Virus record (IMG/VR): IMGVR_UViG_3300030228_000019
Origin: a virus
Direction: 5' to 3' (one strand)
Length of the DNA: 64,000 bases
In this document: one piece after another, positions 26,167 through 52,600 of the stretch
Position numbering within the stretch: position 1 is the first letter of the stretch
Layout: each line of letters starts with the position of its first letter
Made by a program: the position numbers and the translations under genes
The notes under the pieces: model-generated
What the model saw: the letters and a program-made list of their open reading frames with translations, nothing else
What the model was told of the DNA's origin: nothing
Database searches by the model: none

Positions 26167-28696
26167 GGGTCAAGTTACTATACCTTATATATTAATAGTG
26201 GTTATTGTTCTTGTTGTGGCTGTAGTATCTTTACTTTTATATTCTACACTGATTTCACACTCAGTAACATCAAAAACACTTTTACAAATAACAAACTTTT
26301 CATCAAGCAATATTTATAATGGAAACCAAAGTTTTTATTTTAATATTTTAACAAATAAAAATGTTTTTATAAAAGGAAACAACTACACCTTAAATGAAAA
26401 AATCAAATTTACCAATGGAACAAGTCTTGATGTTGCAAAAAACTTTACTTTAGTATTAGATGAAAATATTTCTCCCACAGTAAAATTTTATCAATTTTTT
26501 ACAACAAATGTAATTACTTCTAATTTTTCAGGAATTGCAACTGTATCTTTAGAATTCTTAAAAAATAATGTTTCTTCTTTTATTTATCCAACATCACCTG
26601 TTTCTGATAGTGTCAGTGTTTATTCAAAAAATTCAACAGCAAATCTCCCATATTTTCTTTTAACAACAAATACAACACCACCAAACACAGGTCTTACAAC
26701 ACCAGCATCTGAATATTTTCATGAAGGAACAATAATAAACATTAATGCAACCCCTAAACCTGGTTATGGATTTATAAGCTGGTTTGGAAGTGGAAAAGGT
26801 AATTATACAGGAGAAGTTCAAAATATGTCATTTGTTTTAGAATCAAACACCAGTGAAATTGCCATGTTTGGTTTACTTGCTCCATTGTATATAAAATCAA
26901 CCTATCCTGGTCTTTCTGTAAAACTTGGTGGACAAGTTTATACAACAAATGCATCAACTGTTTTAACAGAAGGCAATGAATATACATATCTATTTCCAAC
27001 AACATATACTTCTTCAACTGGGGTTTTTTATAATTTAAAATATGTAAGCAACTGTGGAACAGATACTAATTCAACTGGAACAATTTTTATGTCACCCTCT
27101 TATGCAAACTGTTCTTTGACTGGTTATTACAATGTATTAGTTCCAATCAACATAAATATAAATAATATTGGAAGTGAAATTTCAGGAACTTCTGTGCAAA
27201 TAACTTTTGCAAATGGCAGCACAAGCAGTTGCTCTGCAAGTTGTAAATATATGGCACAGGTTGGACAACAAATAAAATTATATGCTATAAGTTCAAGTAA
27301 TGGTTATTTTAATAACTATACTGGAACTGGAACAGGGAGTTATAGTGGAACAAATAAAACTATTACACTAACAGTTTCAAATCCAATAACAGAAATTGCT
27401 AATTTTATTCCTGGAGAAACTGTTTTTATAGCATCTAGTTCACAAGTTTCAGGAAATATAAATAATAAAATACCAATAACAACAAATACAACAATAACAT
27501 TACCTGCTAATAGACCATTTAATTTTACAAGTAATGGTATTTTATTACCTGGTTTTATTTTAAAAAATTGGGGAACAAGATTAGATTATTCAATTAATTC
27601 AAGCAAAACAAGCTGTTTAAATTCTGGAAACATATTTACAGCAACAAATAAAACAAATTCAACCAGAACAGAATGCTCTGTTTATTTTTCACCACCAACT
27701 ATACAGTATGCTATTATATTTAAAGAGACATTGAATGGAATAAATACAACTGGATTTCCATATGGAAATGTATTTTTTGACAATGGAACTGAAGCACAAA
27801 CTGTAAACTGGATAAATGCAAATACAGTTGTTCAATTCTATGGAACAAATAATGAAGGAAATTATGGATTTAAAAATTTTACAACAATAAGTGGCACTAT
27901 AAATGGAACAACTGTTAATACTGGTTTTTCTGGAATTGATTCAGTCCCCACAACACAACCAACCAATATTAATTGTCAATGCAGCAATTATAATCAGTTC
28001 TTTGAAACCCAGGGTTATTCCTTTGCTTGGTATCAATATAATTACAGCACACCAACTGTAAATATAACTAGTCCAATAATTGAACAAGCAAATTATGTTA
28101 AAACTAATAGTGTTATATCTGGAACACAATCTATAACAATTAATTATAACTATTATAATATATCAGAAGATTATTCATCTAGTAGCAGCAATCAGTGGGA
28201 TTATTATTTGTCTAGTTATACAACAAAAAGTGGGCAGTTAACTATAAATGAAACATTAACAACACCAATAAGTAATTACACAGCAGGAATTGGAACATAT
28301 AATATTTATTATGAAGGGACCAATGAATTATTTGTATCACTCACAACCAACCCTGACACTTTTATGTATAATTTAAATGTGGTTAACAGTAAATCCTTTT
28401 TTGCAATGTCACCTGAATTTAAAAATATATTTAATTCAATTAATAGTTATATGAATAATAAATTTCCATATATTAGGACTAATGTTGGACCATATGATTA
28501 TAATATAAAATACATTAGTTTTAGTTATACATTTGACAATATGACAGTTTATGAAAATTATGGTAAACCAACTGGGTCTGGTCAGTATTGTGGAGATTTG
28601 TCTTATGAAAATACAGGAGGTTCCACTGAATGGGTGTTATGTTCAACCAGATTTGCTTTTTCAAACACTTATGCTGGACAATATTTATATTACTAG
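26153..28696 (+). CDS. Pilin-like adhesin with InlB-B-repeat-like modules
   Basis: MKNLKG/QVTIPY plus hydrophobic helix; ATPKPGYGFISWFGSG..YTG and NYTGTGTGSYSG...ITEIANF repeats. Confidence 0.75.
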   Translation: MKNLKGQVTIPYILIVVIVLVVAVVSLLLYSTLISHSVTSKTLLQITNFSSSNIYNGNQSFYFNILTNKNVFIKGNNYTLNEKIKFTNGTSLDVAKNFTLVLDENISPTVKFYQFFTTNVITSNFSGIATVSLEFLKNNVSSFIYPTSPVSDSVSVYSKNSTANLPYFLLTTNTTPPNTGLTTPASEYFHEGTIININATPKPGYGFISWFGSGKGNYTGEVQNMSFVLESNTSEIAMFGLLAPLYIKSTYPGLSVKLGGQVYTTNASTVLTEGNEYTYLFPTTYTSSTGVFYNLKYVSNCGTDTNSTGTIFMSPSYANCSLTGYYNVLVPINININNIGSEISGTSVQITFANGSTSSCSASCKYMAQVGQQIKLYAISSSNGYFNNYTGTGTGSYSGTNKTITLTVSNPITEIANFIPGETVFIASSSQVSGNINNKIPITTNTTITLPANRPFNFTSNGILLPGFILKNWGTRLDYSINSSKTSCLNSGNIFTATNKTNSTRTECSVYFSPPTIQYAIIFKETLNGINTTGFPYGNVFFDNGTEAQTVNWINANTVVQFYGTNNEGNYGFKNFTTISGTINGTTVNTGFSGIDSVPTTQPTNINCQCSNYNQFFETQGYSFAWYQYNYSTPTVNITSPIIEQANYVKTNSVISGTQSITINYNYYNISEDYSSSSSNQWDYYLSSYTTKSGQLTINETLTTPISNYTAGIGTYNIYYEGTNELFVSLTTNPDTFMYNLNVVNSKSFFAMSPEFKNIFNSINSYMNNKFPYIRTNVGPYDYNIKYISFSYTFDNMTVYENYGKPTGSGQYCGDLSYENTGGSTEWVLCSTRFAFSNTYAGQYLYY
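27180..27218 (+). repeat. 39-bp exact repeat, inverted copy at 50866-50904
   Basis: TTTCAGGAACTTCTGTGCAAATAACTTTTGCAAATGGCA is identical in both adhesin genes and in the same reading frame. Confidence 0.9.
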
Positions 28697-28883
28697 AAGG
28701 TCTATTATTTAAAATAAAAACAGTTTATAAAAAAATATTTATTGTTTTTATTTGTGTGGTGTTCTTGCCACAAATCCTTCTTAGTAATAAAATAAAGATG
28801 CCAAAATCTCTTTCTATCTTTTCTTTGCTAATCTTTTTAGCTGTTATTTTTTAGCTGCTAATAAATATTCATTTAAAAGATTG

Positions 28884-29363
28884 TTAGCTGTTAATTATAT
28901 TTCTAAATAATTCATTAACAAGCTTATTTACTTCATCTTCAAACTCAGTTAATTCTGGATTATTAAAATTAACTTTTATTGTTTCTTCTAGTGAATGTGG
29001 TCTTTCTGGCAAATTAGAAAAAGTATCTTTAAATTCAACTTCCATAAAAACTATTTCAGTTTTTGTTTCTGAAACTGATTCATTTATAATTGCAATAATT
29101 GAAAAATTTGTTTCACTTGGAATCAAAACAGGTCTTATTTTGTTTGGATAAAGTTTTTTAGTTGTTAAATTTATATGAAGTCCAACTTCCAGATTTGTAG
29201 TGAGTGGCAAATCAGGCTGAATAAATACTCTCTTTATAACAAAATCAAAAGGATAAACATGAGTATCTTCTATATTTTTATCATTTGGAAGTAAGAATTT
29301 GCCAATAATAACAGCCCCTTCTTTTGTATCCTTTTTAATTAAAAAATCAACAGGAATTATCAA
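28884..29363 (-). CDS. Hypothetical protein
   Basis: 159 aa, TTG start after GGTGTGA. Confidence 0.7.
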   Translation of the reverse strand: MIIPVDFLIKKDTKEGAVIIGKFLLPNDKNIEDTHVYPFDFVIKRVFIQPDLPLTTNLEVGLHINLTTKKLYPNKIRPVLIPSETNFSIIAIINESVSETKTEIVFMEVEFKDTFSNLPERPHSLEETIKVNFNNPELTEFEDEVNKLVNELFRNIINS

Positions 29364-29562
29364 TTAATCACACCTTTTTTACTATTACTTTATTATAAAA
29401 TATTTATTATTATATGTCAATATATAATATTTGTTTATTATTTCATTTTTTTTATAAACCTGACTGTTTTCATATGATATATGTTCAAATACCATTTAAA
29501 TGTTTTTATAATACAACTATTTTAAATATCTATTTAAAGATTATAAAATAATAGGTGATTAC

Positions 29563-29750
29563 CTGAACAAAGAAAATGAAGAAATATTAAAAAACAGAAT
29601 ATATGATTTTTTAATCAGATGGAGTTAACTAATCAAACAGTAACCTTTGAAGAATTAATCAACCACTTTAAAGAAGATTCAATAAATGAAGTGCTAAAAA
29701 TAGTTAAAGAAATGATTAAGAATAAAGAACTAAATATAAAAAATAGATGA
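29563..29750 (+). pseudogene. Small helical (wHTH-like) gene split by a -1 frameshift at T TTT TTA
   Basis: GGTGA RBS plus CTG start; frame 1 stops after 21 codons; the -1 frame (MELTNQTVTFEELINHF...) ends in an ATGA overlap with the Fic gene. Confidence 0.45.
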
Positions 29751-30430
29751 ATGATTTCATGGTTAGAAAAATGACATGGAAAGAGTTTGCTGTTTCTTTT
29801 ACCTACAATACAAATAAGATTGAGGGAAGCAAATTAAGTTTTGATGATGTTAAAACTATAATTTATAAAAATATAATACCAATAAATGCAGATAGAAATG
29901 ACATTGAGGAATGCTATGGTTTATATAATGCAATAAATGCTATTAAACTTTTAGCAACATCAACAAATATTATTTTATCACCAGCTTTTATTAAAGAGAT
30001 ACATTATATGGTATTTTTAAAAACTAAACCATTTGCAGGAAAATTTAGAGAAAAGCCAGCTGAAAATGTTGTAATTGTAAATAATTATGGAAACATTTTA
30101 GCAACACCACCTTCATCTGAAAAAGTAGTATCAGAAATAACAGACCTTTGCAATACAACAAACATACTAAATGAAAATAAGGATGAGCCATTTAAATTTC
30201 ATATAGGGTTTGAAAATATTCATCCTTTTATGGATGGAAATGGAAGAGTTGGAAGACTACTTTTAAATTTTATGTTGTTACAAAGAAAAATGAATCCCAT
30301 AGACATAGAATTTGAAAACAGACTTATTTATTATAGCTGTCTTGAAATGCCCTCTGAGGATTATATTAAGGCACTTAAAAAACTTTATGAAAAAGAACAA
30401 GTAGAAATACTTATACCTAAACCACAATAA
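29747..30430 (+). CDS. Fic-domain protein
   Basis: TNKIEGS and the canonical HPFMDGNGRVGR. Confidence 0.92.
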   Translation: MNDFMVRKMTWKEFAVSFTYNTNKIEGSKLSFDDVKTIIYKNIIPINADRNDIEECYGLYNAINAIKLLATSTNIILSPAFIKEIHYMVFLKTKPFAGKFREKPAENVVIVNNYGNILATPPSSEKVVSEITDLCNTTNILNENKDEPFKFHIGFENIHPFMDGNGRVGRLLLNFMLLQRKMNPIDIEFENRLIYYSCLEMPSEDYIKALKKLYEKEQVEILIPKPQ

Positions 30431-30492
30431 ATTAAATAAAATAAAAAATATAACATTCATAATTTTATAAAAGAACAGTTACAGTGGTTATC

Positions 30493-30809
30493 ATGCTACA
30501 AAAATACATGAAATACATTTAAATATATATTGAGCATATAAACTATGATAATATGAAAAAGAAAATTTAGTTAGAATTTATTTTAAAAAATATGATTCAA
30601 TGTTTGATGAGTATGACACTGAAACATTTGGTCTTATTAAAACCAATATTGAAGAATCTGCTACTCTGAAAAAATTATATAATGAATATATAGACACCAT
30701 GAATATAAAAAGAAATAATATAATTGAATTTTGCAATTTTCTAAAAACTAAAAATTATAATGCAACACCTGTATTTTTAGAGTTTGAACTATGTGTGGAT
30801 GATGTTTAA
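30493..30809 (+). pseudogene. Disrupted hypothetical gene (only 30600-30809 open)
   Basis: Coding-like sequence continues upstream of 30600 through a frameshift and an in-frame TAA to an ATG at 30493. Confidence 0.4.
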
Positions 30810-30916
30810 TTTTAAAATAAGAATACTTGCAAGGAAGTATAATACCTGATTATACCAAAGTCTCATACTAAAATATAGAGGTAATATTTAAATATATTCA
30901 CAACAGTCATAATAAT

Positions 30917-31351
30917 ATGAATAATTTAAAAAGTATTACAAGACAGGAACTTGCCTATAATTATCACCAGCTTGGCTTTTATTTAACTGATGAAAAAACA
31001 AAAAAAGGAAAAATACTTTCTATTGAAGAGACCATTTTTTTAATGAGTTTTAGCAAAAATCCAAGAGTAAAATATGGGGCATTTCCAATATTATATAGAT
31101 GGGGATATAAAATAAATACAAAAAAATTATATGAATTATATAGTGATAAAAATAGAACTTTTATGCTAAAAGGAATAATAAAAGCAGTTTTACCATATTT
31201 GCTAAAAAATCCAACACCTAAAAACATACTGGCTGCCTTCAAGTTTAAAAGCCTAATTGTAACAAAAATAAATTATAAATATTTTTATAGCTTTAATAAC
31301 CAGTTGATTTCAAAATACATTGACTTATATGGAAGTGATAGATATGATTGA
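30917..31351 (+). CDS. Hypothetical protein, probable partner of the downstream nucleotidyltransferase
   Basis: 144 aa, own TATA box, directly upstream of the DUF6036-like gene. Confidence 0.7.
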   Translation: MNNLKSITRQELAYNYHQLGFYLTDEKTKKGKILSIEETIFLMSFSKNPRVKYGAFPILYRWGYKINTKKLYELYSDKNRTFMLKGIIKAVLPYLLKNPTPKNILAAFKFKSLIVTKINYKYFYSFNNQLISKYIDLYGSDRYD

Positions 31352-31409
31352 TAAACCAGAACTATTAAATGATACATATTAGGAGATTTTGAATCAAGAA
31401 GGTGATTAA

Positions 31410-31949
31410 CTGAATAATTTAACAAAAATTACAAAAAAGAAGCTTTTGAGATATATTGATTTACTTAATACAAAACTATTTGATAATAAACTAAAAAATA
31501 AAACACAATTAGTTGCCATTGGTCAAACAGCAATGATGCTGTTAGGGTTTACTAAAACAACAGATGACCTTGATTTTAATATTCCAAATAAAGAAGATTA
31601 TTTAATATTTAAAACACTTTATATTCAACTGAAAGCAAATTTTCCAAAGATTGATATTTGTTCAGAAAACAGTATTTTTTCAACATTTGTTCCAGAAGAT
31701 TATATTAACAAAATATTACTATACAGATTATATAATAATATTGAACTTTATATTTTAAATCCAATAGATATTATTTGCACAAAGATTGCAGCAGGAAGAG
31801 AGACTGATGTTGAAGATATTAAAATTATGCAAAAAAAATATCATTTTAAAAGAGAAGAAATACTCAGAAGATTAAAAGAATATCAGTTTGCAGGAAATGA
31901 TAATATTGCTTTTAAAAATTTTGATGCTGTTAGTTATTTATTCAATTAA
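31410..31949 (+). CDS. DUF6036-like nucleotidyltransferase
   Basis: AIGQTAM...TTDDLDF...PIDIICTKIAAGRETDVEDI; I extend the start to an in-frame CTG after AGGTGA. Confidence 0.75.
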   Translation: MNNLTKITKKKLLRYIDLLNTKLFDNKLKNKTQLVAIGQTAMMLLGFTKTTDDLDFNIPNKEDYLIFKTLYIQLKANFPKIDICSENSIFSTFVPEDYINKILLYRLYNNIELYILNPIDIICTKIAAGRETDVEDIKIMQKKYHFKREEILRRLKEYQFAGNDNIAFKNFDAVSYLFN

Positions 31950-31973
31950 AAAAGAGAAGATAAAGAAATTTTT

Positions 31974-32225
31974 ATGACTTTATATGATGAAGAGGTTAAA
32001 AAATTAAATACATACATGCAAAGAGAAAATAAAACCAACAAGCAAATACTTGTATTTGACTCTGTAAAAGAAAATGGTCTTATAATATCTTTTCAAAAAA
32101 TGGAAAATAACTCATTAAAAATAAAAATGGGAAATGAAAAAATAAACACAGCATGTTTTGTTGTTCTTGAAAAAGAGCAAGTTGAAGATGTTAGAAAACT
32201 TATAGAACTTTCTTTAAAAAAGTAG
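31974..32225 (+). CDS. Hypothetical protein
   Basis: 83-aa ORF. Confidence 0.65.
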   Translation: MTLYDEEVKKLNTYMQRENKTNKQILVFDSVKENGLIISFQKMENNSLKIKMGNEKINTACFVVLEKEQVEDVRKLIELSLKK

Positions 32226-32290
32226 TTTTTATTTAATTTTGTAGATATTTATTTTTAAACTATAATTTTAATAAAAGCTGATGTGATATA

Positions 32291-32380
32291 ATGGCTAAAA
32301 CACAAGAAGATACAGATGAAGATGACCTTGATGAGGACTTTGAAGATTTTGATGATGATGGTGAATCTGAAGCTGTCTGA
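32291..32380 (+). CDS. Very acidic 29-aa peptide
   Basis: MAKTQEDTDEDDLDEDFEDFDDDGESEAV; GTGA RBS; not in the ORF track. Confidence 0.6.
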   Translation: MAKTQEDTDEDDLDEDFEDFDDDGESEAV

Positions 32381-32418
32381 AAAATAAATAATTTTAATTT
32401 TTTGTTTTATTTTTTATT

Positions 32419-32492
32419 GGGTCTGTAACTCAGGTTGGTTAGAGTCCTGCACTTTTAGCAGGAGGTCATGGGTTCAAATCCCTTCAAACCCA
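32419..32492 (+). tRNA. tRNA-Lys(TTT)-like, atypical anticodon loop
   Basis: Acceptor GGGTCTG/CAAACCC, D stem ACTC/GAGT, stem CCTGC/GCAGG around ACTTTTA, T arm GGG-TTCAAAT-CCC. Confidence 0.75.
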
Positions 32493-32493
32493 T

Positions 32494-32820
32494 TTATTTA
32501 TTTTCTGGTTCTTTATAACAAGTTTCACATTCCCAGTAATTAATATATTTTGGTTTTGTCCCAGTAACATATTCTTCATTTTTAATCTTTTTTACTTTCA
32601 TACTTCCATCCTTATTAAGAAGCATCTTATTATTTTTATCAAAAAGAACCTCATATAGATATTTACTTCTTTTTATTGAATTAAGGTCAAATTTTCCAAA
32701 ATATTCAAAGGTGTGACCAAGTATTTTTCTATCAGATTTTCTGATTTTTACAACTCCTTTTTTACCACATACAAGGCATTGAGCTTTTTTAGTTTCAATA
32801 TTTTTTTCTGCTGTTCTCAT
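32494..32820 (-). CDS. Zn-binding hypothetical protein
   Basis: CLVC...CETC. Confidence 0.7.
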   Translation of the reverse strand: MRTAEKNIETKKAQCLVCGKKGVVKIRKSDRKILGHTFEYFGKFDLNSIKRSKYLYEVLFDKNNKMLLNKDGSMKVKKIKNEEYVTGTKPKYINYWECETCYKEPENK

Positions 32821-32880
32821 TGTTTTCTACCTTTTTATTCTAATACTTATTATTATATTATTTTAATCATTATTAAAAAA

Positions 32881-33249
32881 TTATTCTGCAAGTTTAATAA
32901 GTCCAACTGTTTTATTTAAATAATTTTTCATTTCTTCATGCAAATAAATTATCATATTAGCATCAGTATCAATTTCTTTTATGCTTCCTGTTTTTATAAC
33001 TGGAAATAATTTAACAGTATATTCTTTTTCTCCAATTTTTGCTGTAAAATTATTTTTTATAAAATTAACAGATTCTTCTTTGTTCATTGCTGTATTTACA
33101 CCAACATAACCAACAATTGTGTCATTAAAAATATTTGTCATCTCTTGTGCTGGCACTGGAGTAGCTATAAAATATTTTATATCAAAAGAAATTGTTTCAC
33201 CTCTCAATAATTGTTTGTTCCATTTATCTGTATAAGTTTTAGTTATCAT
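32881..33249 (-). CDS. Hypothetical protein
   Basis: 122-aa ORF. Confidence 0.7.
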   Translation of the reverse strand: MITKTYTDKWNKQLLRGETISFDIKYFIATPVPAQEMTNIFNDTIVGYVGVNTAMNKEESVNFIKNNFTAKIGEKEYTVKLFPVIKTGSIKEIDTDANMIIYLHEEMKNYLNKTVGLIKLAE

Positions 33250-33299
33250 GGTTTTATAATAAAAAAGTTATTTAAAATATATAACATCAAATGATGTAT

Positions 33300-33587
33300 T
33301 TACAGTTTTTTATTTGAAACAATAATTTGTTTATTTTTTCCTTTTATATTGTAATATAAAATTGGTGTTGTTAATGCAAAACTTATTCCACCCTGTAAAA
33401 TAAGTGGATAACTTATTATTAAAAATCCATAAACCACATATAAAGCAAGTCCTGTCATTATGATGAGTAAATAATAAATAGAAAAATCTCTTGCTTCTTT
33501 TATTTTCAATGTTTTATAAACCTGTGGTAAATAAGCAACAACAATAAAGAAACTTGCAATATAGCCAATAATAACAGCAAACAACAT
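33300..33587 (-). CDS. SemiSWEET/PQ-loop membrane protein
   Basis: IGYIAS...YLPQVYKTLK...DFS, three TM helices. Confidence 0.85.
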   Translation of the reverse strand: MLFAVIIGYIASFFIVVAYLPQVYKTLKIKEARDFSIYYLLIIMTGLALYVVYGFLIISYPLILQGGISFALTTPILYYNIKGKNKQIIVSNKKL

Positions 33588-33625
33588 TTTATTATTTTTT
33601 TATATCAAAAGAATGGTGGTGGTGA

Positions 33626-33997: not shown

Positions 33998-34073
33998 TTA
34001 TATCACTAATTAATTATTTATTTATTAATATATTTTATTTAAATTGCATTTATTTTAATTTTTTATTAAAGTA

Positions 34074-34568: not shown

Positions 34569-34601
34569 AAGCTCAACATTTTTTATTTAAAAATGCTTAA
34601 A

Positions 34602-35108: not shown

Positions 35109-35184
35109 ATACTCAATATTATATTATAATTTATATATTTATACTTTACTATTTTATAATTATATAAAACCAGTTCATTAAGAA

Positions 35185-36113: not shown

Positions 36114-36184
36114 GCTTGGGTGGTGCATGGAAGCATTGAAGGGTTGTGACTCTTCAGAAGTGGAATCCTTTTCCACCCCAAGCT
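36114..36184 (+). tRNA. tRNA-His(GTG)-like, atypical
   Basis: Acceptor GCTTGGG/CCCAAGC, D stem GTGC/GCAT, loop TTGTGAC with one extra base, T stem GTGGA/TCCAC with non-canonical loop ATCCTTT. Confidence 0.7.
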
Positions 36185-36187
36185 TAA

Positions 36188-36272
36188 GGTGGTTTATCAA
36201 AGTAGACAAATGAAGTTGATTCAAAATCAACTGGATTTAGTTCCTTCAGAGGTGCAAATCCTCTAACCACCA
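36188..36272 (+). tRNA. tRNA-Leu(CAA)
   Basis: Acceptor GGTGGTT/AACCACC plus A, anticodon arm GTTGA-TTCAAAA-TCAAC, long variable arm, T arm AGAGG-TGCAAAT-CCTCT. Confidence 0.85.
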
Positions 36273-36285
36273 AAAAATTTCTTAA

Positions 36286-37842: not shown

Positions 37843-37910
37843 ATATTATAAACTAAATCTGTTAAAGTTATATTTTTCTATAACTTTGATTAATTAACTT
37901 AATTTTTTAT

Positions 37911-38010
37911 TTACCAGTCTATTTCTCTTTCTATTCAAATTCCATTTTTATGAAAAGTCATTACCAGAGTAATTCTCTCTCTAATCATATTCCATTTTTA
38001 TGGAAGATTT
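37911..38010 (+). repeat. Two tandem 50-bp repeats (39/50 identical)
   Basis: TTACCAG...TTCCATTTTTATG unit; inverted copy at 38241-38290 matches copy 2 at 43/50. Confidence 0.85.
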
Positions 38011-38119
38011 TAATAAAAAGTGAAAAACCATCTGATTCAGAATTAAGATTTGGCTATTTGGAACACACATATACAAGTATATAATATATATAGTATAGAT
38101 GGATTGAGTTCCCAAATCA

Positions 38120-38150
38120 ATGGTCCCTGCACATATAGTGCAGGGACCAT
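38120..38150. repeat. Perfect 13-bp palindrome ATGGTCCCTGCAC-ATATA-GTGCAGGGACCAT
   Basis: Read directly; centre of the larger symmetric structure. Confidence 0.95.
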
Positions 38151-38220
38151 CCATTTAAGGTCTCAATCTATGTTAACTATATATATATCCTTCTTGTATA
38201 TGTCCCAAAAAAGTAGCTAA

Positions 38221-38260
38221 AATCTTCCATAAAAATGGAAAATCTTCCATAAAAATGGAA
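38221..38260 (+). repeat. Tandem 20-mer AATCTTCCATAAAAATGGAA x2
   Basis: Exact reverse complement at 37990-38009. Confidence 0.95.
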
Positions 38261-38493
38261 AAGGTTTAGAGATAAAAATACTCTGGTAAAAAAATGTATA
38301 AAAAGCTTTTTATATATTGATTAATCAGGTAATGTAGCAGCCCTTCCTCTATTTCAATCCAGTTCACACCCAGACACCCTGTCTTTCAGGAGGAAGCAGC
38401 CCTTTTTTGCCATAATAACATGCCAACTCTATTTGCCAGTAAAAATAAACCAATTAGCTCACCATTACTTTATTTAACAGTTTACTATATTAT

Positions 38494-42565: not shown

Positions 42566-42566
42566 C

Positions 42567-42645: not shown

Positions 42646-43099
42646 CTAAATTCCAAACCTTTCTGCTTTTTCTTTTAATTCTTTATCCAAAAGGAATTCT
42701 TTAGTTTTTTCATATTTTTCTTTAATGAGCTTTACCCAATTACCATTTATAAATTTTTTAATTGTTATATTATAACATATTTTAGGATTTTCTGAAAATG
42801 GTTCATCATAAAGAAACTCTGAAAAAGTAGCATCAAGCAATACCTTTGCTGTGTCTAAATCAGTTATAAGCATTTTACTATCTAAGAAATTTTCTTTATA
42901 ATATAATACAAGTGATACTTTATAGTCTGGAGACATAATTGTAACATTATCTGGTTTAAAAAATAGCTTTTTTTCTTTTATTATTTTTAATTGAAGTATT
43001 ACCATATTTGTAAAAATATAAACTCCAAGTTGTAACTTTTTTTGCTAATTCTTCAAGTTCATTAAGTTTATTTTCAAGTTCTTTATTTTCTTTTGCCAA
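42646..43099 (-). pseudogene. Hypothetical gene interrupted by a +1 shift at ATT TTT TAA A
   Basis: TTG start after GTGA RBS; frame 1 ends at TAA 42956-42958; the +1 frame continues as ORF 42646-43005. Confidence 0.5.
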
Positions 43100-43115
43100 C
43101 TAATCACTTATTATT

Positions 43116-44122
43116 TTAATTATTTGAACCTGTAAAATAATATATTCCACTTTCATTTTTTATTTCAATATTACTTATTTTTACATTTTTTATTGGTGTT
43201 TCATAAGCTCTTTCTTCCCTATGTCTCCACCAAGAATCATCCATTTCTATTTTAAAATTAAAAAGTGCAAGTGGTATTTCTTTTTTAGATATTGGATGAT
43301 ATGTTACCACATAACCCCTTCCATTTTCAGGAAATTCATTAAAATCATTAGTATCTGGCACATCACCTGACTTATATTCAAGGCTTCCATCCCCAAATTT
43401 CTCAGCAAGGTCTTCAAGTTCCTTTGTTTCTTCAGGAAATTGCTCTTTAAATTCATCTCTTAAAGTCTCTGTCACAAATCTAAAGCCTTCACTACTCATT
43501 TATATCATCATATTTATTATAAAACCAACTTATTTAAAGATTACCTTTGCAGGTATTACCTTTACATTTGCAGGTATTACCTTTACATTATTGCTAACCC
43601 AAGTATGTATGTCAGCAACAATATCTTCATCTACATCTTCATTATAGGTGCAACTTATAATTGTATCCTTAAAAACATCATATACAAAAGTTGCCTTTTT
43701 TCCTCTTTTTATAAAGGCTACTTCTATGTAGCCATCCATCCAATCTTTTACAATTTTTTTGGCTTGACCACTATACTTGTCTTAACACTTTTGCTTAATC
43801 TTTCCTGTATCATTTTAGTTGCAAGTCCATCACAAATAGATTTTAAAGCATCTTCAACAAAAACAATATATTCAGCCTTTTCTGCATCAGTATATTTTTT
43901 GGGTAATATATTTGGCTCTTTAAAGTCAACATAAGTTACAATATCATTTTTTAGTTCCTTTTTTTTAGGCACACCCTCAAATACCCTTCTGAAATCTTTT
44001 TCCTCAAAATAAATTTTTTCAGTTACATCTGGTATATTCTTTTTTGTCTTCCTAACCTTTGGAGCAATTCTTTCATTTCTTATTATCATTTTCAGTTTGC
44101 TAAAATCTATTCCTTCCAACAT
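43116..44122 (-). other. Three small hypothetical CDS (43116-43499, 43530-43739, 43748-44122)
   Basis: Co-oriented ORFs with RBS-like GTGA/GATGA. Confidence 0.65.
43546..43587. repeat. Exact in-frame 21-bp tandem duplication
   Basis: TTTGCAGGTATTACCTTTACA x2, encoding the repeated NVKVIPA. Confidence 0.9.
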
Positions 44123-44154
44123 AATATCACTTATTTATGTTTATGCTAAAGTGT

Positions 44155-44688: not shown

Positions 44689-44774
44689 GTATTATCACTT
44701 GCATGTATATTTTAAATTATTATTATTTTAAAATAACATTTTCATTTTTTCTGAAATATCAAAATATAGTATAG

Positions 44775-45467
44775 TTAGAGTTTCTTTTGTTTTTTATCAG
44801 TTATTACTTTTGCCAGTTTAAAAACATCTTGATTATTTTTAACAAAATGATTTCTTGCTTCTATAAAGGCTGTTGTAGATATTTTTGATTGCCACTCATA
44901 AACAGCATCTCTTATTTCATCTTCTACTAAATTAAGATTTAAAAATAAATCAGAAATTGATTGTGCTTTTAAAATAGCATATTTTGCATTTCTTTTATAA
45001 TCCTTAATATTTTCTTTTTCAAAATCTTCATAATCAAGGTTGACATTTTCCTTTGTTTCTTCTATTATTTCATTTAGCTGTTCATTTGTTAGATTTGGAA
45101 ATTCATCAAGTAAATCATCTTTATATGATTCATAATCAACTGACTCATATAAATTTCCAAAATGCCATGCATTATTGTCTCCAGAAATCTCATATAAACC
45201 ATTTCCTGTTTTTAGAGAATTTAGTAACATTGTTTTTATTTTTAATAATGTTATATTACCTTCTGTTATTTGTTTGTCTAATTCTCTTGCAAACTCAACA
45301 CTATATTTTGAATTTTTGCATCTTATCATGAAACCCATTAAATCTGAATCATCACCACTCCAAAACCAACCAGCATCAGTCATGTTTCCAAGTGTCAATT
45401 CCATTTTTCCATTATCATATTCCATTTTTATATTGTTAGATATTTCTATTCTAAAGTTCATGTTCAC
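44775..45467 (-). CDS. Hypothetical acidic protein
   Basis: 230-aa ORF. Confidence 0.7.
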   Translation of the reverse strand: MNMNFRIEISNNIKMEYDNGKMELTLGNMTDAGWFWSGDDSDLMGFMIRCKNSKYSVEFARELDKQITEGNITLLKIKTMLLNSLKTGNGLYEISGDNNAWHFGNLYESVDYESYKDDLLDEFPNLTNEQLNEIIEETKENVNLDYEDFEKENIKDYKRNAKYAILKAQSISDLFLNLNLVEDEIRDAVYEWQSKISTTAFIEARNHFVKNNQDVFKLAKVITDKKQKKL

Positions 45468-45511
45468 ACCTTATCAATATATTTTTTAATAGTTTATTAT
45501 TTATTCTTCAG

Positions 45512-45757
45512 CTATTCTTTTCTTTTTAATACTTCAATTATATCTTTTATCATATCATTATATAAATATATGGTTTCTGCTTCTCCATAAAAGTCCTTAT
45601 TGGTGATAGATATTCCTTTAACTTTATCATTATATTTAGTAATTTCAACATAATACTCTCCAAAATCATAGTCTTTTAGTCCACCAATTATAGTATATAT
45701 TATGTTTCCATCTTTGTCAATCTTTCTCTTAACATTTTCTATTTTTAGTTTTTACAT
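45512..45757 (-). pseudogene. 81-codon gene with TAA at codon 2
   Basis: ATG TAA then an open coding-like frame KLKIENVKRKIDKDGNIIYTIIGG... to TAG. Confidence 0.55.
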
Positions 45758-45775
45758 GTTATCATCTATATACTG

Positions 45776-46063
45776 TTATTTAGTATTTAAAACCTTTTCT
45801 CTATAATAAGCTTTTGTTATTTGTCTATCTACAACTCTGTTAAAATTTGTTAATTCTTGCTGTAGTTCTTTTTTATATATTTCTTTATGAGCCCTTACCT
45901 TTTTCAACCCAGCTCTATAAATGTTCACTAAAGAGAGAGATGTAAATTTATCTAAGCTATGATTATTATAAGATTCTATAATATAAGATAAATTATCTTG
46001 TATAGTTTTTTCAAGAATGTTGCTATTTATTAAGTTTTCAATCTCTTTATATTTTTCATTCAT
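45776..46063 (-). CDS. Hypothetical protein
   Basis: 95-aa ORF. Confidence 0.65.
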   Translation of the reverse strand: MNEKYKEIENLINSNILEKTIQDNLSYIIESYNNHSLDKFTSLSLVNIYRAGLKKVRAHKEIYKKELQQELTNFNRVVDRQITKAYYREKVLNTK

Positions 46064-46113
46064 TTTAATACCCCTTTGTCATATATTTAATAAATATATG
46101 CATACACAAATAT

Positions 46114-46875
46114 TTAATGTTTTCTTATTAGATTATAAGAATAAACCTGTGTTATTTTGGTCTTTTCTTTATTAAGCTCACAATTATTTAAAATTATAAT
46201 ATATGCAGTAGTTATTGATTCATCTTTTATAATAAAAGCATCATCAATTTCTAATTTGCCAGTATCATCTGTTACAAATAATTTATCATTTTCAATAACA
46301 GGTGTTCCTCTTATATTTAAGAAAGGTTTATTTAGTTTAATATCTTTTATCTTTGTATAAAATATATTTTCATCAGAAAGATATTTTTTTATAATATCAG
46401 TTGAAATAGCTTTTTTTGATAAAGAAAATGCTTTTTGTGGTTGGCTTAAACACCTATTACATCTTGTGTAAATCCAACCTGTTTGTTCTAGCTGACCATT
46501 TTCAACAAGTTTTCCACAGGATTCACATATTTTTGAAGAAAGAGATTCTGCCCTTGAAATAATTTCATCTTCTTTTTCAGTTGAGCCATAGACATAAAAT
46601 CTTAGTGTGCCAAATTTTTCTTTTACTTCTTCAACAACAATGTTTTTATTATTTTCAATTTGTGAGCAGAGAACATCAATTAAATTAAACCAGCCATTGC
46701 CACACATTAAGCCAAAAACCAATAAATCTGTTATTGGCTGAATCTCTTTCTCATAAATTGAAGGATTCCATATTTCCATATTTTGCTCAATAATATTTTT
46801 GATAATATTTTTGTTTTGTTTTGGCTGTAATATTGGATGTTTTCTTTCAAGTATTAGTTCATATTTTTTATCCAT
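46114..46875 (-). CDS. Phage-type conserved protein (KEKFGTLRFY motif) with Zn site
   Basis: CGNGWFNLI...VKEKFGTLRFY...ICESCG...CNRC; extra C-terminal domain. Confidence 0.7.
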   Translation of the reverse strand: MDKKYELILERKHPILQPKQNKNIIKNIIEQNMEIWNPSIYEKEIQPITDLLVFGLMCGNGWFNLIDVLCSQIENNKNIVVEEVKEKFGTLRFYVYGSTEKEDEIISRAESLSSKICESCGKLVENGQLEQTGWIYTRCNRCLSQPQKAFSLSKKAISTDIIKKYLSDENIFYTKIKDIKLNKPFLNIRGTPVIENDKLFVTDDTGKLEIDDAFIIKDESITTAYIIILNNCELNKEKTKITQVYSYNLIRKH

Positions 46876-46889
46876 TTACATCACAGGTT

Positions 46890-47641
46890 TTAGATACAAT
46901 TATCTTCAACAATATATTTATTTAAGTCTTTTTCATAATCCTTCTGCATTTTTTTTATTTTTGCATCAATTTTTCCTGCTTGTTTTTCTAATTGTCTTTT
47001 ATATATTTCTTCAAAAAGATATTCATTAAGTAGAGTGTCATTGTCTGAAAAAGATTTGCCAATTGATAAACAATAACCAACTGTTTCATACTCTTCTAAA
47101 AGCTCTTCATCAGACATTGTTTTAATATTTTCTTTTTCTAACTCAAGCATACTGTAACCAATTAAACTTCAGTTTTTTCATTAAATTCTTTTTTATATTC
47201 TGGTTCTTTACTACATCCATTATTTTTTCTATTTCTGTTTTTACCATTTTATCACTTAATAAAATTATCATCTTTATCTTTATTCTTCAGCCACACCTCA
47301 TAAACTGATGTTGGAGAGTGCCCCAAATAAACAGTTTCTCTTATTGAGTTTTTTTCATATGTTGTTATTTTATATTTTTTAAGAATTGTTTCAATAATAT
47401 CTGTAAATTTCTTTTCTGGTAAATAATATTTAAAAAACCAGTTGCTTTTATCTCCTGCATATTTCTTTTTTACAAGTTCATAATCAATGCTTGGTGTGGC
47501 TTCTGCAAATAGTTTGGTATATATTTCATCTACAATTTTAAATAATTTATCTCTGCTTGTCATTAAATCTCCCTTTTTCTTTTTCAGTGTTTGCTGCCAT
47601 TTTATTATCAATTGATACTCATTCTGTTTACTTAAAAACAA
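46890..47641 (-). other. Two small hypothetical CDS (46890-47150, 47252-47641)
   Basis: Co-oriented ORFs; the second probably starts at MTSRDK. Confidence 0.6.
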
Positions 47642-47997
47642 TACAATATTGTAATACCTAATATTTATAGATTATGCTATAAATAATTTTATGTGAATAT
47701 AATCAAAAACAAGAGATTATTTATAAAGAAGTCTTCTTGCAAAATATTTCAAATAAACTTGAACTAGGATTTTGTCCATCATCAGAATTTTTGTTTATTC
47801 TAATAGAATCTTTATTATTCATAAAATGCACCAGCTTGATTTATTCATTTTTTTAATAAATTATGCTGCTTTCATATCAGACTTATCTGTTTTTTAATTA
47901 TTTCACAGTCTCTTTTATTATAAGCAGATATATCACCAATAAATTTTAATCAACAACATTATATATAAAAGTATTTAAAATGTTTATTTTGATTTAA

Positions 47998-49665
47998 TTA
48001 AAGAAGTTTATTAACAGCCTCTTCCATTTCATTCTTTGAAAAATTAAATCCAAGTTTTTCAACACTATTTTTTTCTCCAGTCAAAGCACTTGAATATGCT
48101 ATTTTTTTCATAAGTATTTTTTTAACAGTTTCATCAAATTTTGTGTTTGTTAACAAATAATAAACATTTACTTTATCAGTTGTTGATGTTTTTCTTATCA
48201 TTCTATATGTTCTTTGCCTTATTTTGCTTGCAAGAAGGGGTAGGTCATAATGCACCATTGCAGTTGTTGTTTCAAGATTTATTCCATAGGCAAGAATATC
48301 TGATGTGACTAAAATGTTTATTTCTTTTGAGTCTTTGTATTCTTTTATTTTTACTTCTCTTTCTGTCTTTTTTAAATCAGAAGTTATACTAATAACCTTG
48401 AATCCATCATTTTGCAATTGAATTGTTAATTTATTCAAAATCAGTCTATATGAAGTAAATACAACCAGTTTTTCATTTATTTTTTCATTGAGTAGTTTTT
48501 TTAATTCATCATATTTTTTACTGGATATTTCTTTTTCAGGCATGTTGTAATTAGCATCATCTAAAACAAGCCTTGTTCTCTGAAACATGTCTAAAAGCAT
48601 GTTTGTGTCTGATTTATATTTTTTAAACATGAGTTCCTGCCTTAGTTTTTGTAGTTCAAGACCCTGTTCTTTGCTAAGGTCAACAAATATATCTTTTACT
48701 ATAATGTTTATTTTATTTAGTTCAGTGCCAACATCCTCTCTTGTTCTTTTTAGAAAGTATGGTTCAATTTCTTTAATTAGTTGTGATAAATTTTTAAAAA
48801 GAACAGGCTTTTTGATTATTTTGTTTCCAAAATGAAGAGTTTTGTAAACAACATAGTTGTTTACAAAGGTATCATATTCAAAAATATTAGTAAAGGTGTT
48901 TACTATATAAAAAAGGTCTAAAGGATGTTTTTCAACAATTTCACCAGACAATAACCAGTAATATTTTGCTTTAATCTTCATTAAACCAGTTCTTGCTTGT
49001 GTTGGATTTCTAAGAATACTTGCTTCATCACACACAATAATATCTGGATTAAATTTTATGTATTCTTCAAGATTTTTAGACCTTAATTGTTCATAATTTA
49101 TTATTGTTGTATTTTTTTCAAATTCAGGATTATCATAAGAAAAAACATTTATTGTTTTTTGCCATGCTGAAATTGTGCTGGGCAAAACAACAATCAAAAT
49201 CTTATTTATTTTTTTGGAATCAAATAAAAGTTTTAATGCAATAACTGTTTCAACTGTTTTGCCAAGACCTAAATCATCACCAAGTATTGCAAAGGTTCTA
49301 TTCAAAAGAAAATGAACACCATCAATTTGATATTTTGCAATTTCAAAATTGAAATCAGGATTTTTAACATCAAGGTCTGTTTTTATTTTATTCATTTTTT
49401 CTTCAACAAAATCCTTGTTAAAATTATTGGTTACATATAATTTTTCAATAGTTTGTTCTTCAAAACTTATGTTGTTTAAAAGAAAAGCAGTTTCTAAGTC
49501 TTTCTTTTTATCTTTTTGTAAAACCCAGAGTTTTGTTATTGGCTGATATTTGCACCCAAATTCTTTTAATATTTCATTTATTTTTTTATCAATAACATCA
49601 AATTTAAAACTATTATTTTTTATTGAAATAATATTATTATTTTCAAATATTGTTATTTTTTGCAT
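47998..49665 (-). CDS. SNF2/SMARCAL1-like helicase
   Basis: LGDDLGLGKT, VCDEAS, LVVFTSY, YGINL, VHYDLP; short HARP-like N-terminus; motifs III and VI are divergent. Confidence 0.85.
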   Translation of the reverse strand: MQKITIFENNNIISIKNNSFKFDVIDKKINEILKEFGCKYQPITKLWVLQKDKKKDLETAFLLNNISFEEQTIEKLYVTNNFNKDFVEEKMNKIKTDLDVKNPDFNFEIAKYQIDGVHFLLNRTFAILGDDLGLGKTVETVIALKLLFDSKKINKILIVVLPSTISAWQKTINVFSYDNPEFEKNTTIINYEQLRSKNLEEYIKFNPDIIVCDEASILRNPTQARTGLMKIKAKYYWLLSGEIVEKHPLDLFYIVNTFTNIFEYDTFVNNYVVYKTLHFGNKIIKKPVLFKNLSQLIKEIEPYFLKRTREDVGTELNKINIIVKDIFVDLSKEQGLELQKLRQELMFKKYKSDTNMLLDMFQRTRLVLDDANYNMPEKEISSKKYDELKKLLNEKINEKLVVFTSYRLILNKLTIQLQNDGFKVISITSDLKKTEREVKIKEYKDSKEINILVTSDILAYGINLETTTAMVHYDLPLLASKIRQRTYRMIRKTSTTDKVNVYYLLTNTKFDETVKKILMKKIAYSSALTGEKNSVEKLGFNFSKNEMEEAVNKLL

Positions 49666-49666
49666 A

Positions 49667-52600
49667 TTAGCCACTTTGAACATTACCAATTGTTATGCTT
49701 GGCATAATACCATTTGGTGGAACAAGTCTTGTTCTTATCCAATAAATTGGTCCAATTGTTTCACCACTTGATTGTGAAATAAAACCTAAATGCCCAGACC
49801 ATCCAGAATAATCAATTCCAGAAATGGTTGCTTTATTACCATAATTTGAAAATCCATTTAATGTTGTAGATGTTGAATAAACTGTTGGTAATTCTATACT
49901 ATAAATAACACTATTGGTATTTGGTAAATTTAATGCTGGAGAATCAGCATAAATATCACTTCCAGATGAACCCCATGCCACTAATCCATCATGTGGCACA
50001 CCACTAAATCCAAAATTTCCAATTCCACCAAAATTATTGTTATCATTTGAACTATTAATTAATCCTAAAAGGACAAGATTGTTTACCCCAGTTTTTCCAG
50101 ATACATCCATTTCACCATAAAAATCAAGTATTATTGGACCAGTTGTTGTATATGTTGTTGTGTATATTTCTGGTGGACTAGTGCCTGATTCACTTGATTC
50201 AGGGTTTACTGTGATTCCATTTGATACAACATAGTTATTATTTGTTCCATAATAAGCAGTCCATTTGCTTGTGTTTAAACTTGTTCCTTTGAAGTTAGAA
50301 TAAAAATTAAATACTTTAGCACCATTATCATATTGTCCATATGTTGAGGTCATATTTGGTGCTTCTCCTGCATAATTTTTATCATAATTAACTGTTTTTT
50401 GCTCAAAGGTCATGTTTATAACTGCACTTGAACTTCCATTTATAACAAATGGTAGCTTAACCCAAAAAACAGTATTTGTAGAAGTATTAGAACATCCAGA
50501 CTCACACCAAGAATACAATTCAGTTGTTCCATAATAAAATCTTATGTTTCCTAAATTCCCATTTTCATAAGAAGAATATGTTGAAGGATTAAAAATGATT
50601 TGTTGTTGAAATCCTGGTAATGTTGCAACTGTTTGTGAATTTGTTAATGTAATTGGTGAAAAATAAAATTTTGGTATAAAATTTGCTGTTTCTGTTATTG
50701 GATTATTTATTGTAAATGTAGTTATAGAATTTGTTCCACTATAACTTCCTGCACCAGTTCCTGTATAATTTTTAAACATACCAGTTGTTGAATTTACTGC
50801 TGTCAGTGTTATTTTTTGGTTTAATGGAACATAATAATTACAGGTTGTTTTGCAGGTTGATGTTGTGCCATTTGCAAAAGTTATTTGCACAGAAGTTCCT
50901 GAAACTGAAGATGTTGAATTATGAATAATTAAAGTAAATGGTGCTTCTCCATTATTATAGTCCCCTTCTAATGTGCAATTTGCATAAGAAGCTTTCATTA
51001 CAAAGTTTCCAGTATTTGTTGTGCCTATAATTTTATTACACAAACTTACATTCTTAAATGTATATAAATTTCCAACAGGAGAAGTGTATGTTGAAAGAAA
51101 AGTATAATTATAATTATAAGAAGCATCAAATAATGCAGATGTGTTTGTAGTATAAGTTGTTTTATTTATAACTACACTCATACCACCATAACTTGTATTT
51201 ATAAATAGGTTATATGGTGCAATTACATGAACAACAGAAACAGGACTAACTGCTGAAAAGTTTCCAGTTGAACCTTCTGCTTTTGCACAATAATAGGTTG
51301 TATTTTTAGGTGTAACAGTTGCTAATGTTGAGTTATCAATTACAGAAAATCCACTTGTTAAAGCAGTTGTGCAGGTTGTATTTGTATAACCATAATACCA
51401 ATAAGCAGTATATGGTGGTTTATAACCCAAAATATTACTGGTTAAATTTATTGATTGTCCTATGTTAATGGTTGAATTAAATGGTGTTGGCTGTGTTATA
51501 TTCATTATAAATTGATTTAGATAGAATTCACTTGCTGGACTTTTTGTAATAGAACCATTTCTATCTTCAACTGTGTAATAAAAACTATAATTACCAGTTA
51601 AATTAGCAGATGAAGTAACAAAAGTTGTATTAGCTGTTTGTGTTGTTTTATATAAACTGTATAAATTATTATTTGGTGCTTTTTCATACCATTTGAAATT
51701 GAAATAGGTTGGAACTCCACCAGTTGGGTGTGCTTGTAAATCTTCTGTTATTCTTTGATATGCTGGTATTGGTTTAAAGGTTATTGGTTTTCCAACAAGT
51801 AATGGATTTATATTTCCAATGTATAGGTAAATTGGACCTGAACCATTTATTGTTATGCTTTTTTGTGCAACAAAATGATTGAAACTTGAAAATTCTGCAA
51901 TATATTTTCCATTTTTAACAGTTATATGTGTTCCATTATCTGAAATTGGAAAAGAATAATTTGATATTCCAACAAGTGTGCTTTCTCCTGGAACAACAAT
52001 ATCATTAGCTGTTTCAATATAAAACACTGGTCTGCTTGTTTTATAAAATTTAAGATTTATTGTTGAATTTACTGGACCAAAATAAGTCCCATTTTCTATA
52101 TTAGTATTTGTGCATTTTTCATAACAATATGTTATATTTATCATTTTTCCTGAATAAGGAATATTAATGATATTGTTGTATGTTCCTGATGCTATGTTGT
52201 AATTATTATATGATTGTATATTATTAATCTTTATATTTATTTCATTTGTTGGAATAAAAGTTTGTGTTCCATTTTGTATTAAAAAACTAATATTTAATGT
52301 TTTTATTGTCAATGGTAATGTATAGTTTGTTCCAACAAAATAAGGTTTATATACATTAAAATAGGATGACATTAGCTTTAGACTATTTATATCACTTGTA
52401 ATAGGAAAATAGTAGGTTGAAAGATTCTGAAATAAGGGTTGAGTTAATTTTCCATTTATATAAACATAAGTTGAAGAATACATGTTTTTGATTTCTAATA
52501 ATTTTTGTTGAATTAATGGTATTGTTTTTACATAATAAAGATTAGTAGAATAAATAACCAGATTACCAGAAATTGTATTTGGTTGAATAAAAAATCTGCT

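What the first reader, a model, noticed from the sequence alone, without database searches (positions are those of the whole stretch)
27180..50904. Exact 39-bp in-frame inverted repeat joins two oppositely oriented adhesins 23.6 kb apart
Seen: 27180-27218 equals the reverse complement of 50866-50904 (SGTSVQITFANG), inside a homologous module of about 160 aa whose other codons have diverged (other exact matches I saw are only 16-18 bp). Inference: recombination here would invert the whole segment, including the tRNAs and the palindromic control region, and swap the C-terminal halves of the two adhesins in frame, as in a shufflon. Recent gene conversion is the alternative. No site-specific recombinase was recognised in the window.
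Basis: partly seen in the sequence, partly recalled or inferred. Interest (0 to 1): 0.7.

Follow-up and report, generated by a model that had tools for sequence, protein, structure and literature searches.

The report
Gene-conversion patch in inverted adhesin paralogues
Two oppositely oriented pilin-like surface-protein genes of a very AT-rich archaeal replicon share one exact 39-base stretch that is most likely a small patch copied from one gene to the other, and nothing shows that the 23.6 kb between them flips.

Summary
Bases 27180-27218 are the exact reverse complement of 50866-50904. This is the longest exact repeat in the window. It lies in frame in a shared module of about 195 aa (48% aa, 60% nt identity) of two pilin-like adhesin genes, A (26153-28696, +) and B (49667-52891, -).

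The identity exceeds chance. All 12 fully shared codons are identical, including two rare ones (GTG, GGC). Outside the run 67% of same-residue codons match and none of 10 pairs with a rare codon is shared (P about 1e-3; codon-column shuffles 3/20000). The peptide lies in the first strand of an InlB-B-repeat domain, a part that varies across the family, so protein constraint does not explain it.

The shufflon-like reading is not supported:
- no recombinase was detected;
- the site has only two copies;
- both genes are complete;
- every locus that reaches gene A or B (19 loci, 8 JGI samples and 3 SRA runs) is collinear with the window;
- no chimeric A/B protein exists among 5.8 billion protein clusters.

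Reads were not available, so rare inversion cannot be excluded.

My verdict is a short gene-conversion patch between paralogues, a known process. This scan has noted similar patches in other small archaea.

The parts
27180..27218 (+). 39-nt exact repeat, copy in gene A (codons for SGTSVQITFANG plus flanking bases)
50866..50904 (-). 39-nt exact repeat, copy in gene B, inverted relative to the copy in A
   Evidence: Logan k=31 contigs end at 50875, 30 nt into it.
26153..28696 (+). Gene A: 847-aa pilin-like adhesin. The N-terminus (KGQ followed by a hydrophobic helix) looks like an archaeal class III signal. PF18998 InlB B-repeat at residues 171-239. The C-terminal third is hypervariable between strains.
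49667..52891 (-). Gene B: 1074-aa surface protein with a hydrophobic N-terminus and DUF2341 at residues 781-878. Its C-terminal half resembles gene 23672-25888. It overlaps the start of the SNF2 helicase ORF 47998-49689 by 23 nt (JGI gene calls vary between 555 and 561 aa).
26843..27412 (+). Shared module in A (residues 231-420)
50672..51256 (-). Shared module in B (residues 546-740): two beta-sandwich subdomains, the second an InlB-B-repeat-like domain. The 39-mer encodes the end of the linker and strand 1 of the second subdomain.
27219..50865 (.). The 23.6-kb segment that a crossover at the repeat would invert. It holds Fic, a DUF6036 nucleotidyltransferase, tRNA-Lys, NDK, an imperfect palindrome near 38135, many ORFans and an SNF2 helicase. 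No recombinase was detected.
23672..25888 (+). Gene C: a third pilin-like paralogue (738 aa), related to the C-terminal half of B (30% over about 600 aa). It shows the family's mosaic history.

Best explanation
A and B are paralogous, modular, pilin-like surface adhesins of a nearly clonal, very AT-rich (25% GC), probably archaeal replicon. The 39-nt identity is a short patch of interlocus gene conversion. The two inverted modules paired by homologous recombination, and a non-crossover outcome or short-patch repair of heteroduplex overwrote about 39-41 nt of one copy with the other. The patch lies at the boundary between two beta-sandwich subdomains, in the first strand of the B-repeat-like domain. 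It was fixed before the sampled strains diverged.

Shown: the identity, its statistical excess, its position in a part of the domain that varies across the family, and the absence of inverted or chimeric forms in assemblies.

Inferred: the conversion mechanism itself. Also inferred is that the patch is a by-product of adhesin-family evolution and not a dedicated switch. It remains a possible low-frequency substrate for RadA-type recombination.
For: 1. The run is exact over 39 nt inside a module that is otherwise 60% identical at the nucleotide level. NG86 dS is about 0.82 and dN about 0.54 outside the run, and all 12 fully shared codons are identical.
2. Outside the run 56 of 83 same-residue codon pairs are identical (54% expected from codon usage alone). 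This gives P(12/12) of 9e-3 by the crude rate and about 1e-3 with a fitted ancestry term and the actual codons.
3. The two rare codons in the run, GTG (9.5% of Val) and GGC (7% of Gly), are shared. None of the 10 same-residue pairs outside the run that include a rare codon is shared.
4. Codon-column shuffles reach 39 nt in 3 of 20000 trials.
5. In an alignment of 31 B-repeat copies from 12 other proteins (33 rows with A and B), the conserved core is F..WTGTG.GSYSGT..VTMN.PITETA.W. That core explains the 18- and 16-nt runs. The 12-residue tract falls in the variable first strand, so protein constraint does not predict it. The AF2 model (pLDDT 84.6) places it at the start of subdomain 2.
6. The family has a mosaic history: B's middle matches A and its C-terminal half matches gene C.
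7. Short-patch, discontinuous conversion separating markers 20-30 nt apart is documented for an archaeon, Sulfolobus acidocaldarius (PMC3367456).
8. No feature of a dedicated inversion system was found (see the rival explanations).
Against: The population is about 99.9% identical and has no SNP inside the module. No divergent relative carries orthologues of A and B; the nearest module homologues are 33-37% identical. The classic phylogenetic proof of conversion, a patch tree that differs from the flank tree, therefore cannot be made. A tract of 39-41 nt is very short. The statistics were computed after the fact on one striking run. Lineage-specific selection on this peptide together with codon choice could mimic a patch.
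Confidence: 0.6

Rival explanations
1. There was no recent exchange. The 12-residue peptide is under lineage-specific purifying selection, and the synonymous identity comes from strong codon bias, residual common ancestry and perhaps selection on codon choice. An example of the last would be rare GTG/GGC codons acting as a translational pause at a domain boundary.
For: Codon bias is extreme (TTT 91%, AAT 83%, CAA 77%). Synonymous sites outside the run are not fully saturated: 67% identical against 54% expected. The crude P is only about 9e-3. The tract sits at a subdomain boundary, where conserved rare codons have been described in other proteins (from my own knowledge, not tested here).
Against: The tract lies in the part of the B-repeat that varies most across the family. 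Zero of 10 rare-codon positions are shared elsewhere against 2 of 2 in the run. The joint shuffle probability is 1.5e-4.
Confidence: 0.2
2. The 39-mer pair is a working recombination site. Crossover there, by a site-specific enzyme or by general homologous recombination, reversibly inverts 23.6 kb. This swaps the C-terminal parts of A (from residue 358) and B (from residue 677), as in a shufflon or the phiCh1/phiH1 tail-fibre switch.
For: The repeats are inverted, exact, in frame and at a subdomain boundary, so both chimeras should fold. The genes are pilin-like adhesins near a pilus ATPase, the kind of protein that shufflons vary. As I recall, 39 nt exceeds the minimal homology known for RecA-type recombination in E. 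coli. Assemblies report only the majority orientation.
Against: No tyrosine or serine recombinase appears in the window or in about 10 kb beyond one end by Pfam or PHROGs, and there is no H-x-x-R motif in ten ORFs examined within the segment. There are only two copies and no partial copies. Both genes keep their own starts. All 19 fetched loci that reach gene A or B, from 8 JGI samples and 3 SRA runs, are collinear with the window, and two records verifiably carry both genes in the parental arrangement. No chimeric protein of any length from 30 to 1880 aa exists among 5.8 billion clusters. The co-directional gene block 40.8-62.3 kb runs uninterrupted across the B junction, and B overlaps the downstream SNF2 gene.
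Confidence: 0.08
3. The 39-mer is a nucleotide-level cis element present in both mRNAs, for example an RNA structure or a target of a shared antisense regulator, and is conserved for that reason.
For: Both mRNAs carry the same sense sequence. It contains a small 6-5-6 hairpin, TGCAAA-TAACT-TTTGCA.
Against: The folding energy is ordinary, with z -0.4 to -1.0 in three contexts, and the hairpin is not kept in the minimum-energy fold of B's context. No complementary or partial copy of 13 nt or more exists elsewhere in the window. Rfam finds nothing there.
Confidence: 0.05

Closest known systems
Interlocus (ectopic) gene conversion between prokaryotic paralogues, including the short-patch conversion shown experimentally in Sulfolobus acidocaldarius (PMC3367456)
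   Same: A short tract of perfect identity, synonymous sites included, embedded in diverged paralogous sequence with sharp borders. The copies are inverted on one replicon, and no dedicated enzyme is needed.
   Different: Here it is inferred from one tract in one nearly clonal population, with no strain or species contrast to show the event. The host is an uncultured AT-rich lineage, not Sulfolobus.
phiCh1/phiH1 ORF34-36 invertible tail-fibre region of haloarchaeal viruses (described in PMC6210493)
   Same: Archaeal. Two oppositely oriented receptor-binding or fibre-type genes whose shared repeats allow an in-frame exchange of C-terminal parts.
   Different: There a tyrosine recombinase (Int1) lies between the genes, each gene holds numerous short repeats, the segment is about 3.5 kb, and one partner lacks a start codon. 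Here there is no recombinase, a single 39-nt pair, 23.6 kb between the copies, and both genes are complete.
R64-type shufflon (Rci recombinase, sfx sites, pilV C-terminal cassettes); from my own knowledge
   Same: The target is a type IV pilin-like adhesin, and the proposed outcome is an exchange of C-terminal segments by inversion.
   Different: There is no Rci-like gene, no set of multiple sfx-like sites, and no promoterless cassettes. See the membership test.
Campylobacter fetus sap locus (RecA-dependent inversion between conserved 5' regions of S-layer gene copies); from my own knowledge
   Same: Inversion by general homologous recombination between inverted surface-protein paralogues would be the analogous mechanism if this locus ever flips.
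   Different: The sap homology is hundreds of bases long and inversion is observed. Here the homology is 39 nt and inversion is not observed.

Membership tests
Shufflon (Rci/sfx type) | Dedicated tyrosine recombinase encoded next to the invertible region | tested here: not met
   No integrase, recombinase or resolvase family was found by Pfam or PHROGs for ORFs of the window or in the precomputed Pfam of called genes on related loci. There is no H-x-x-R motif in ten ORFs examined within the segment. About 40 kb of the roughly 116-kb replicon was not seen.
Shufflon (Rci/sfx type) | Several short crossover sites in both orientations separating cassettes | tested here: not met
   There are exactly two copies with up to 3 mismatches and no sub-copy of 13 nt or more.
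Shufflon (Rci/sfx type) | One constant 5' gene part joined to alternative promoterless 3' cassettes | tested here: not met
   A and B each have their own start codon and hydrophobic N-terminus.
Shufflon (Rci/sfx type) | Alternative orientations present in the population | tested here: inconclusive
   None of the 19 loci that reach gene A or B, from 11 datasets, shows the inverted order, and no chimeric proteins are on record. Assemblies show only the majority form, and reads are not available.
phiCh1/phiH1 Int1 invertible fibre module | Recombinase gene between two inverted fibre genes that carry arrays of short repeats | tested here: not met
   Same searches as above. Only one repeat pair was found. 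The system is described in PMC6210493.
Interlocus gene conversion patch | Tract identity, synonymous sites included, significantly above the paralogous background, with abrupt borders | tested here: met
   39/39 against 60% background. P is about 1e-3 and 1.5e-4 by shuffles. dS is about 0.82 outside the run, and the 12 fully shared codons are identical.
Interlocus gene conversion patch | Phylogenetic incongruence of the patch against its flanks across strains or species | not testable with these tools
   No polymorphism occurs in the module among strains, and no orthologous pair exists in other lineages.
InlB B-repeat domain (PF18998) | Sequence match to the family profile or to family members | tested here: met
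   A residues 171-239 match PF18998 at E 1.9e-8. The second half of the shared module matches B-repeat copies of PF18998-bearing proteins at domain E down to 3e-12.
Archaeal type IV pilin-like protein (class III signal peptide) | Short basic N-terminus, a [KR]-[GAS]-Q-type cleavage motif, then a hydrophobic helix | tested here: inconclusive
   By eye A (KGQ), C (KSQ), G_845 (KGQ) and the small pilins 17572 (KAQ) and 18687 (KAQ) fit. B (VEQA with no basic residue) is atypical. No dedicated predictor was available.

The most novel reading that the evidence does not exclude
The 39-nt pair is used, at low frequency and by the host's general recombination system, to flip a 23.6-kb arc of a circular replicon of about 116 kb. 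This would produce two chimeric pilin-like adhesins (A N-terminus with B C-terminus, and the reverse). It would be a recombinase-free surface-variation switch in an archaeal lineage in which invertible DNA is almost unstudied.
Probability: 0.07. Interest if true: 0.6.

Novelty: new member of a known kind. Interest (0 to 1): 0.22.

Why it matters
The locus adds one more example of modular, pilin-like adhesin paralogues in small, AT-rich archaea exchanging short stretches of sequence. This helps explain the mosaic architecture of these proteins. It does not reveal a new mechanism. If read-level data ever showed the inverted junctions, it would be a rare case of surface-protein switching by inversion in archaea. 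On present evidence that is unlikely.

Tried and rejected
- Exact search for the 27-nt core of the repeat in metagenome contigs and viral contigs found nothing. Those collections do not hold these samples.
- No whole genome is held for the window, and the JGI records cannot be searched by handle. The rest of the replicon was seen only through flanks of up to 10 kb.
- A search for chimeric A/B proteins at near and shorter lengths found none.
- PDB sequence searches of three mid-sized ORFans in the segment gave nothing meaningful.
- RNA folding of the tract was not distinctive.
- A diversity-generating retroelement was considered and rejected. There is no reverse transcriptase, the flanks differ at all base types, and the strain SNPs in A's C-terminus are spread over 700 nt and are not adenine-specific.
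- An assembly artefact was rejected, because independent assemblies from 8 JGI samples give the same sequence and three k=31 assemblies branch exactly at the repeat.
- GC skew follows the coding strand and gives no information on inversion history.
Full report
**Observation**

The + strand at 27180-27218 and the - strand at 50866-50904 carry the same 39 bases, with mismatches immediately on both sides. No other copy exists with up to three mismatches, and no fragment of 13 nt or more recurs in the window. An all-against-all search for exact repeats shows this is the longest in the 64 kb. The next dispersed ones are 21-23 nt and AT-rich.

Both copies are in frame. One lies in ORF A (26153-28696, +, 847 aa) and the other in ORF B (49667-52891, -, 1074 aa). 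The two proteins share one module: 94 of 195 residues identical, E 9e-39. A codon alignment of the module is 60% identical at the nucleotide level. The other exact runs are 18, 16 and 11 nt.

**What the genes are**

The window is 25% GC. A, the neighbouring gene C (23672-25888), the giant gene at 845-4591 and two small genes (17572, 18687) begin with K-[G/A/S]-Q followed by a hydrophobic stretch. This looks like the archaeal class III (type IV pilin) signal. B has a hydrophobic N-terminus without the basic residue.

A carries a PF18998 InlB-B-repeat domain and B carries DUF2341. A pilus-type ATPase, VirB4-like and FtsK-like ATPases lie upstream. FEN1 and family-B DNA polymerase genes lie on the same replicon.

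An AlphaFold2 model of B residues 541-745 (mean pLDDT 84.6) shows two beta-sandwich subdomains. Its nearest solved folds are tandem Ig-like domains of Gram-positive pilins and adhesins, though with low TM-scores of 0.3-0.4. 'Adhesin' is thus a reasonable label by analogy. The 12 shared residues form the end of the inter-domain linker and strand 1 of the second subdomain, which is the B-repeat-like one.

**Is the identity more than chance?**

- Codon usage is strongly biased.
- Outside the run, 56 of 83 codon pairs that encode the same degenerate residue are identical. Codon usage alone predicts 54%.
- At that crude rate, twelve out of twelve has P about 9e-3. With a fitted residual-ancestry term (r = 0.25) and the actual codons, P is about 1e-3.
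- The run contains two rare codons, GTG (9.5% of Val) and GGC (7% of Gly), shared by both genes. Outside the run, none of the ten same-residue pairs that include a rare codon is shared.
- Shuffling codon columns gives a run of 39 or more in 3 of 20000 trials.
- NG86 dS is about 0.82 outside the run, and all 12 fully shared codons are identical.

Does protein constraint explain the identical peptide? I aligned 31 B-repeat copies from 12 other proteins with the modules of A and B. The conserved core is F..WTGTG.GSYSGT..VTMN.PITETA.W. That core accounts for the 18- and 16-nt runs. The SGTSVQITFANG position falls in the variable first strand, where only a Gln, a hydrophobic residue followed by Thr, and a Gly recur. 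The tract is therefore an outlier that neither bias nor family-wide constraint predicts.

**Is there any sign of inversion?**

The protein database places A and B in clusters of 7 and 4 near-identical members from JGI metagenomes. I fetched 22 loci from 8 JGI samples and 3 SRA-derived Logan assemblies.

- The 21 loci aligned against the window are collinear with it at about 99.9% identity. Nineteen of them reach gene A or gene B.
- Two records verifiably carry both genes in the parental relative orientation. In Ga0188180_0003, A is at about 25.9-28.5 kb (+) and B at about 47.0-50.3 kb (-). In Ga0188172_10008, A is at 113159-115699 (+) and B at 17754-20978 (-).
- A chimera would be about 755 or 1166 residues long. 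No such protein, and no shorter fragment with a mixed junction, is present among 5.8 billion clusters.
- Three Logan contigs end at window position 50875. That is exactly 30 nt (k-1 for k = 31) into the repeat, as expected where the graph branches at a genuine repeat. This confirms the repeat in three more datasets but says nothing about orientation.
- The co-directional gene block from about 40.8 to 62.3 kb runs through the B junction, and B overlaps the start of the downstream SNF2 helicase gene.

**Is there machinery for a programmed switch?**

- Pfam and PHROGs scans of the window's ORFs find no integrase, invertase or transposase. The precomputed Pfam hits on called genes of the related loci also show none.
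- Three mid-sized ORFans in the segment have no relative in the PDB, and ten ORFs examined within the segment lack an H-x-x-R motif.
- The tract has no distinctive RNA fold (z -0.4 to -1.0), and Rfam finds nothing there.
- Each defining feature of a shufflon or of the phiCh1/phiH1 Int1 fibre switch (PMC6210493) that could be tested was not met.

**Interpretation**

The best-supported reading is a short interlocus gene-conversion patch. The two inverted modules paired, and a non-crossover outcome or short-patch repair of heteroduplex copied about 39-41 nt from one to the other before the sampled strains diverged.

Short, discontinuous conversion that separates markers 20-30 nt apart has been demonstrated in the archaeon Sulfolobus acidocaldarius (PMC3367456). 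The mosaic make-up of B (middle like A, C-terminal half like C) fits a family that recombines.

I cannot give the classic proof. The module has no polymorphism among strains, and no other lineage carries an orthologous pair. I therefore put this at 0.6. I give 0.2 to 'constraint plus bias, no recent exchange', 0.08 to a working inversion site and 0.05 to a cis element.

Invertible DNA is little studied in archaea (PMC10028968). Read-level data, which I could not access, remain the decisive test. Earlier notes of this scan describe similar conversion patches in inverted pilin-like paralogues of other small archaea. I used them only as context.

**Verdict**

The shufflon-like interpretation is unsupported. 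The phenomenon is of a known kind, and interest is low to moderate.

Noticed in passing
whole window; related records Ga0188172_10008 (118155 bp), Ga0188180_0003 (116406), Ga0188175_0008 (116446), Ga0188179_10007 (116617): Independent assemblies give contigs of 116.3-118.2 kb with different start points. In one record, A lies 2.5 kb from the 3' end and B lies 17.8 kb from the 5' end, with about the same spacing as in the window. This suggests a circular replicon of about 116 kb. It carries PolB, FEN1, dUTPase/DCD, NDK, a phosphomevalonate-kinase-like gene, VirB4-like and pilus ATPases. No ribosomal genes were seen in the roughly 75 kb examined. It could be a plasmid, a virus or a mini-chromosome; this is not resolved.
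   Followed up: partly
window 28000-28700 (3' third of gene A): This is a hotspot of strain variation in an otherwise 99.9% identical population: 12-19 differences per locus, against 0-3 per kb in most other 1-kb bins. Nearly all are nonsynonymous. There is also a 3-nt indel, a 12-nt tandem duplication (WDYY repeat) and one premature stop that removes the last two residues. It looks like diversifying selection on the adhesin tip. B is almost invariant.
   Followed up: partly
window 29653-32014: A 2.36-kb block (Fic/DOC protein, a 144-aa ORF, a DUF6036 nucleotidyltransferase and an 83-aa ORF) is present in the window and partly in L005. It is absent from L006, L007 and L009. It ends about 400 nt before tRNA-Lys (32419-32492). 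This is an accessory, toxin-antitoxin-like insertion with no integrase seen.
   Followed up: partly
window 36114-36272: ARAGORN calls a tRNA with an undetermined anticodon (36114-36184) and a tRNA-Leu(CAA) (36188-36272). Neither reaches Rfam's tRNA gathering score. Only tRNA-Lys does.
   Followed up: partly
window 37900-38300 and 43000-44000: Two further strain-variable spots were seen. The imperfect palindrome region shows 30 differences in L006, and a stretch near 43 kb shows 24 differences in L008. The palindrome centre (38135) is about 900 nt from the midpoint between the two 39-mers (39042), so the pair is only roughly symmetric about it.
   Followed up: no
window 49667-49689: Gene B's stop overlaps the start of the SNF2-family helicase ORF by 23 nt in the window's ORF list. 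JGI gene calls vary between 555 and 561 aa. This suggests co-transcription of an adhesin and a helicase, an odd pairing.
   Followed up: no
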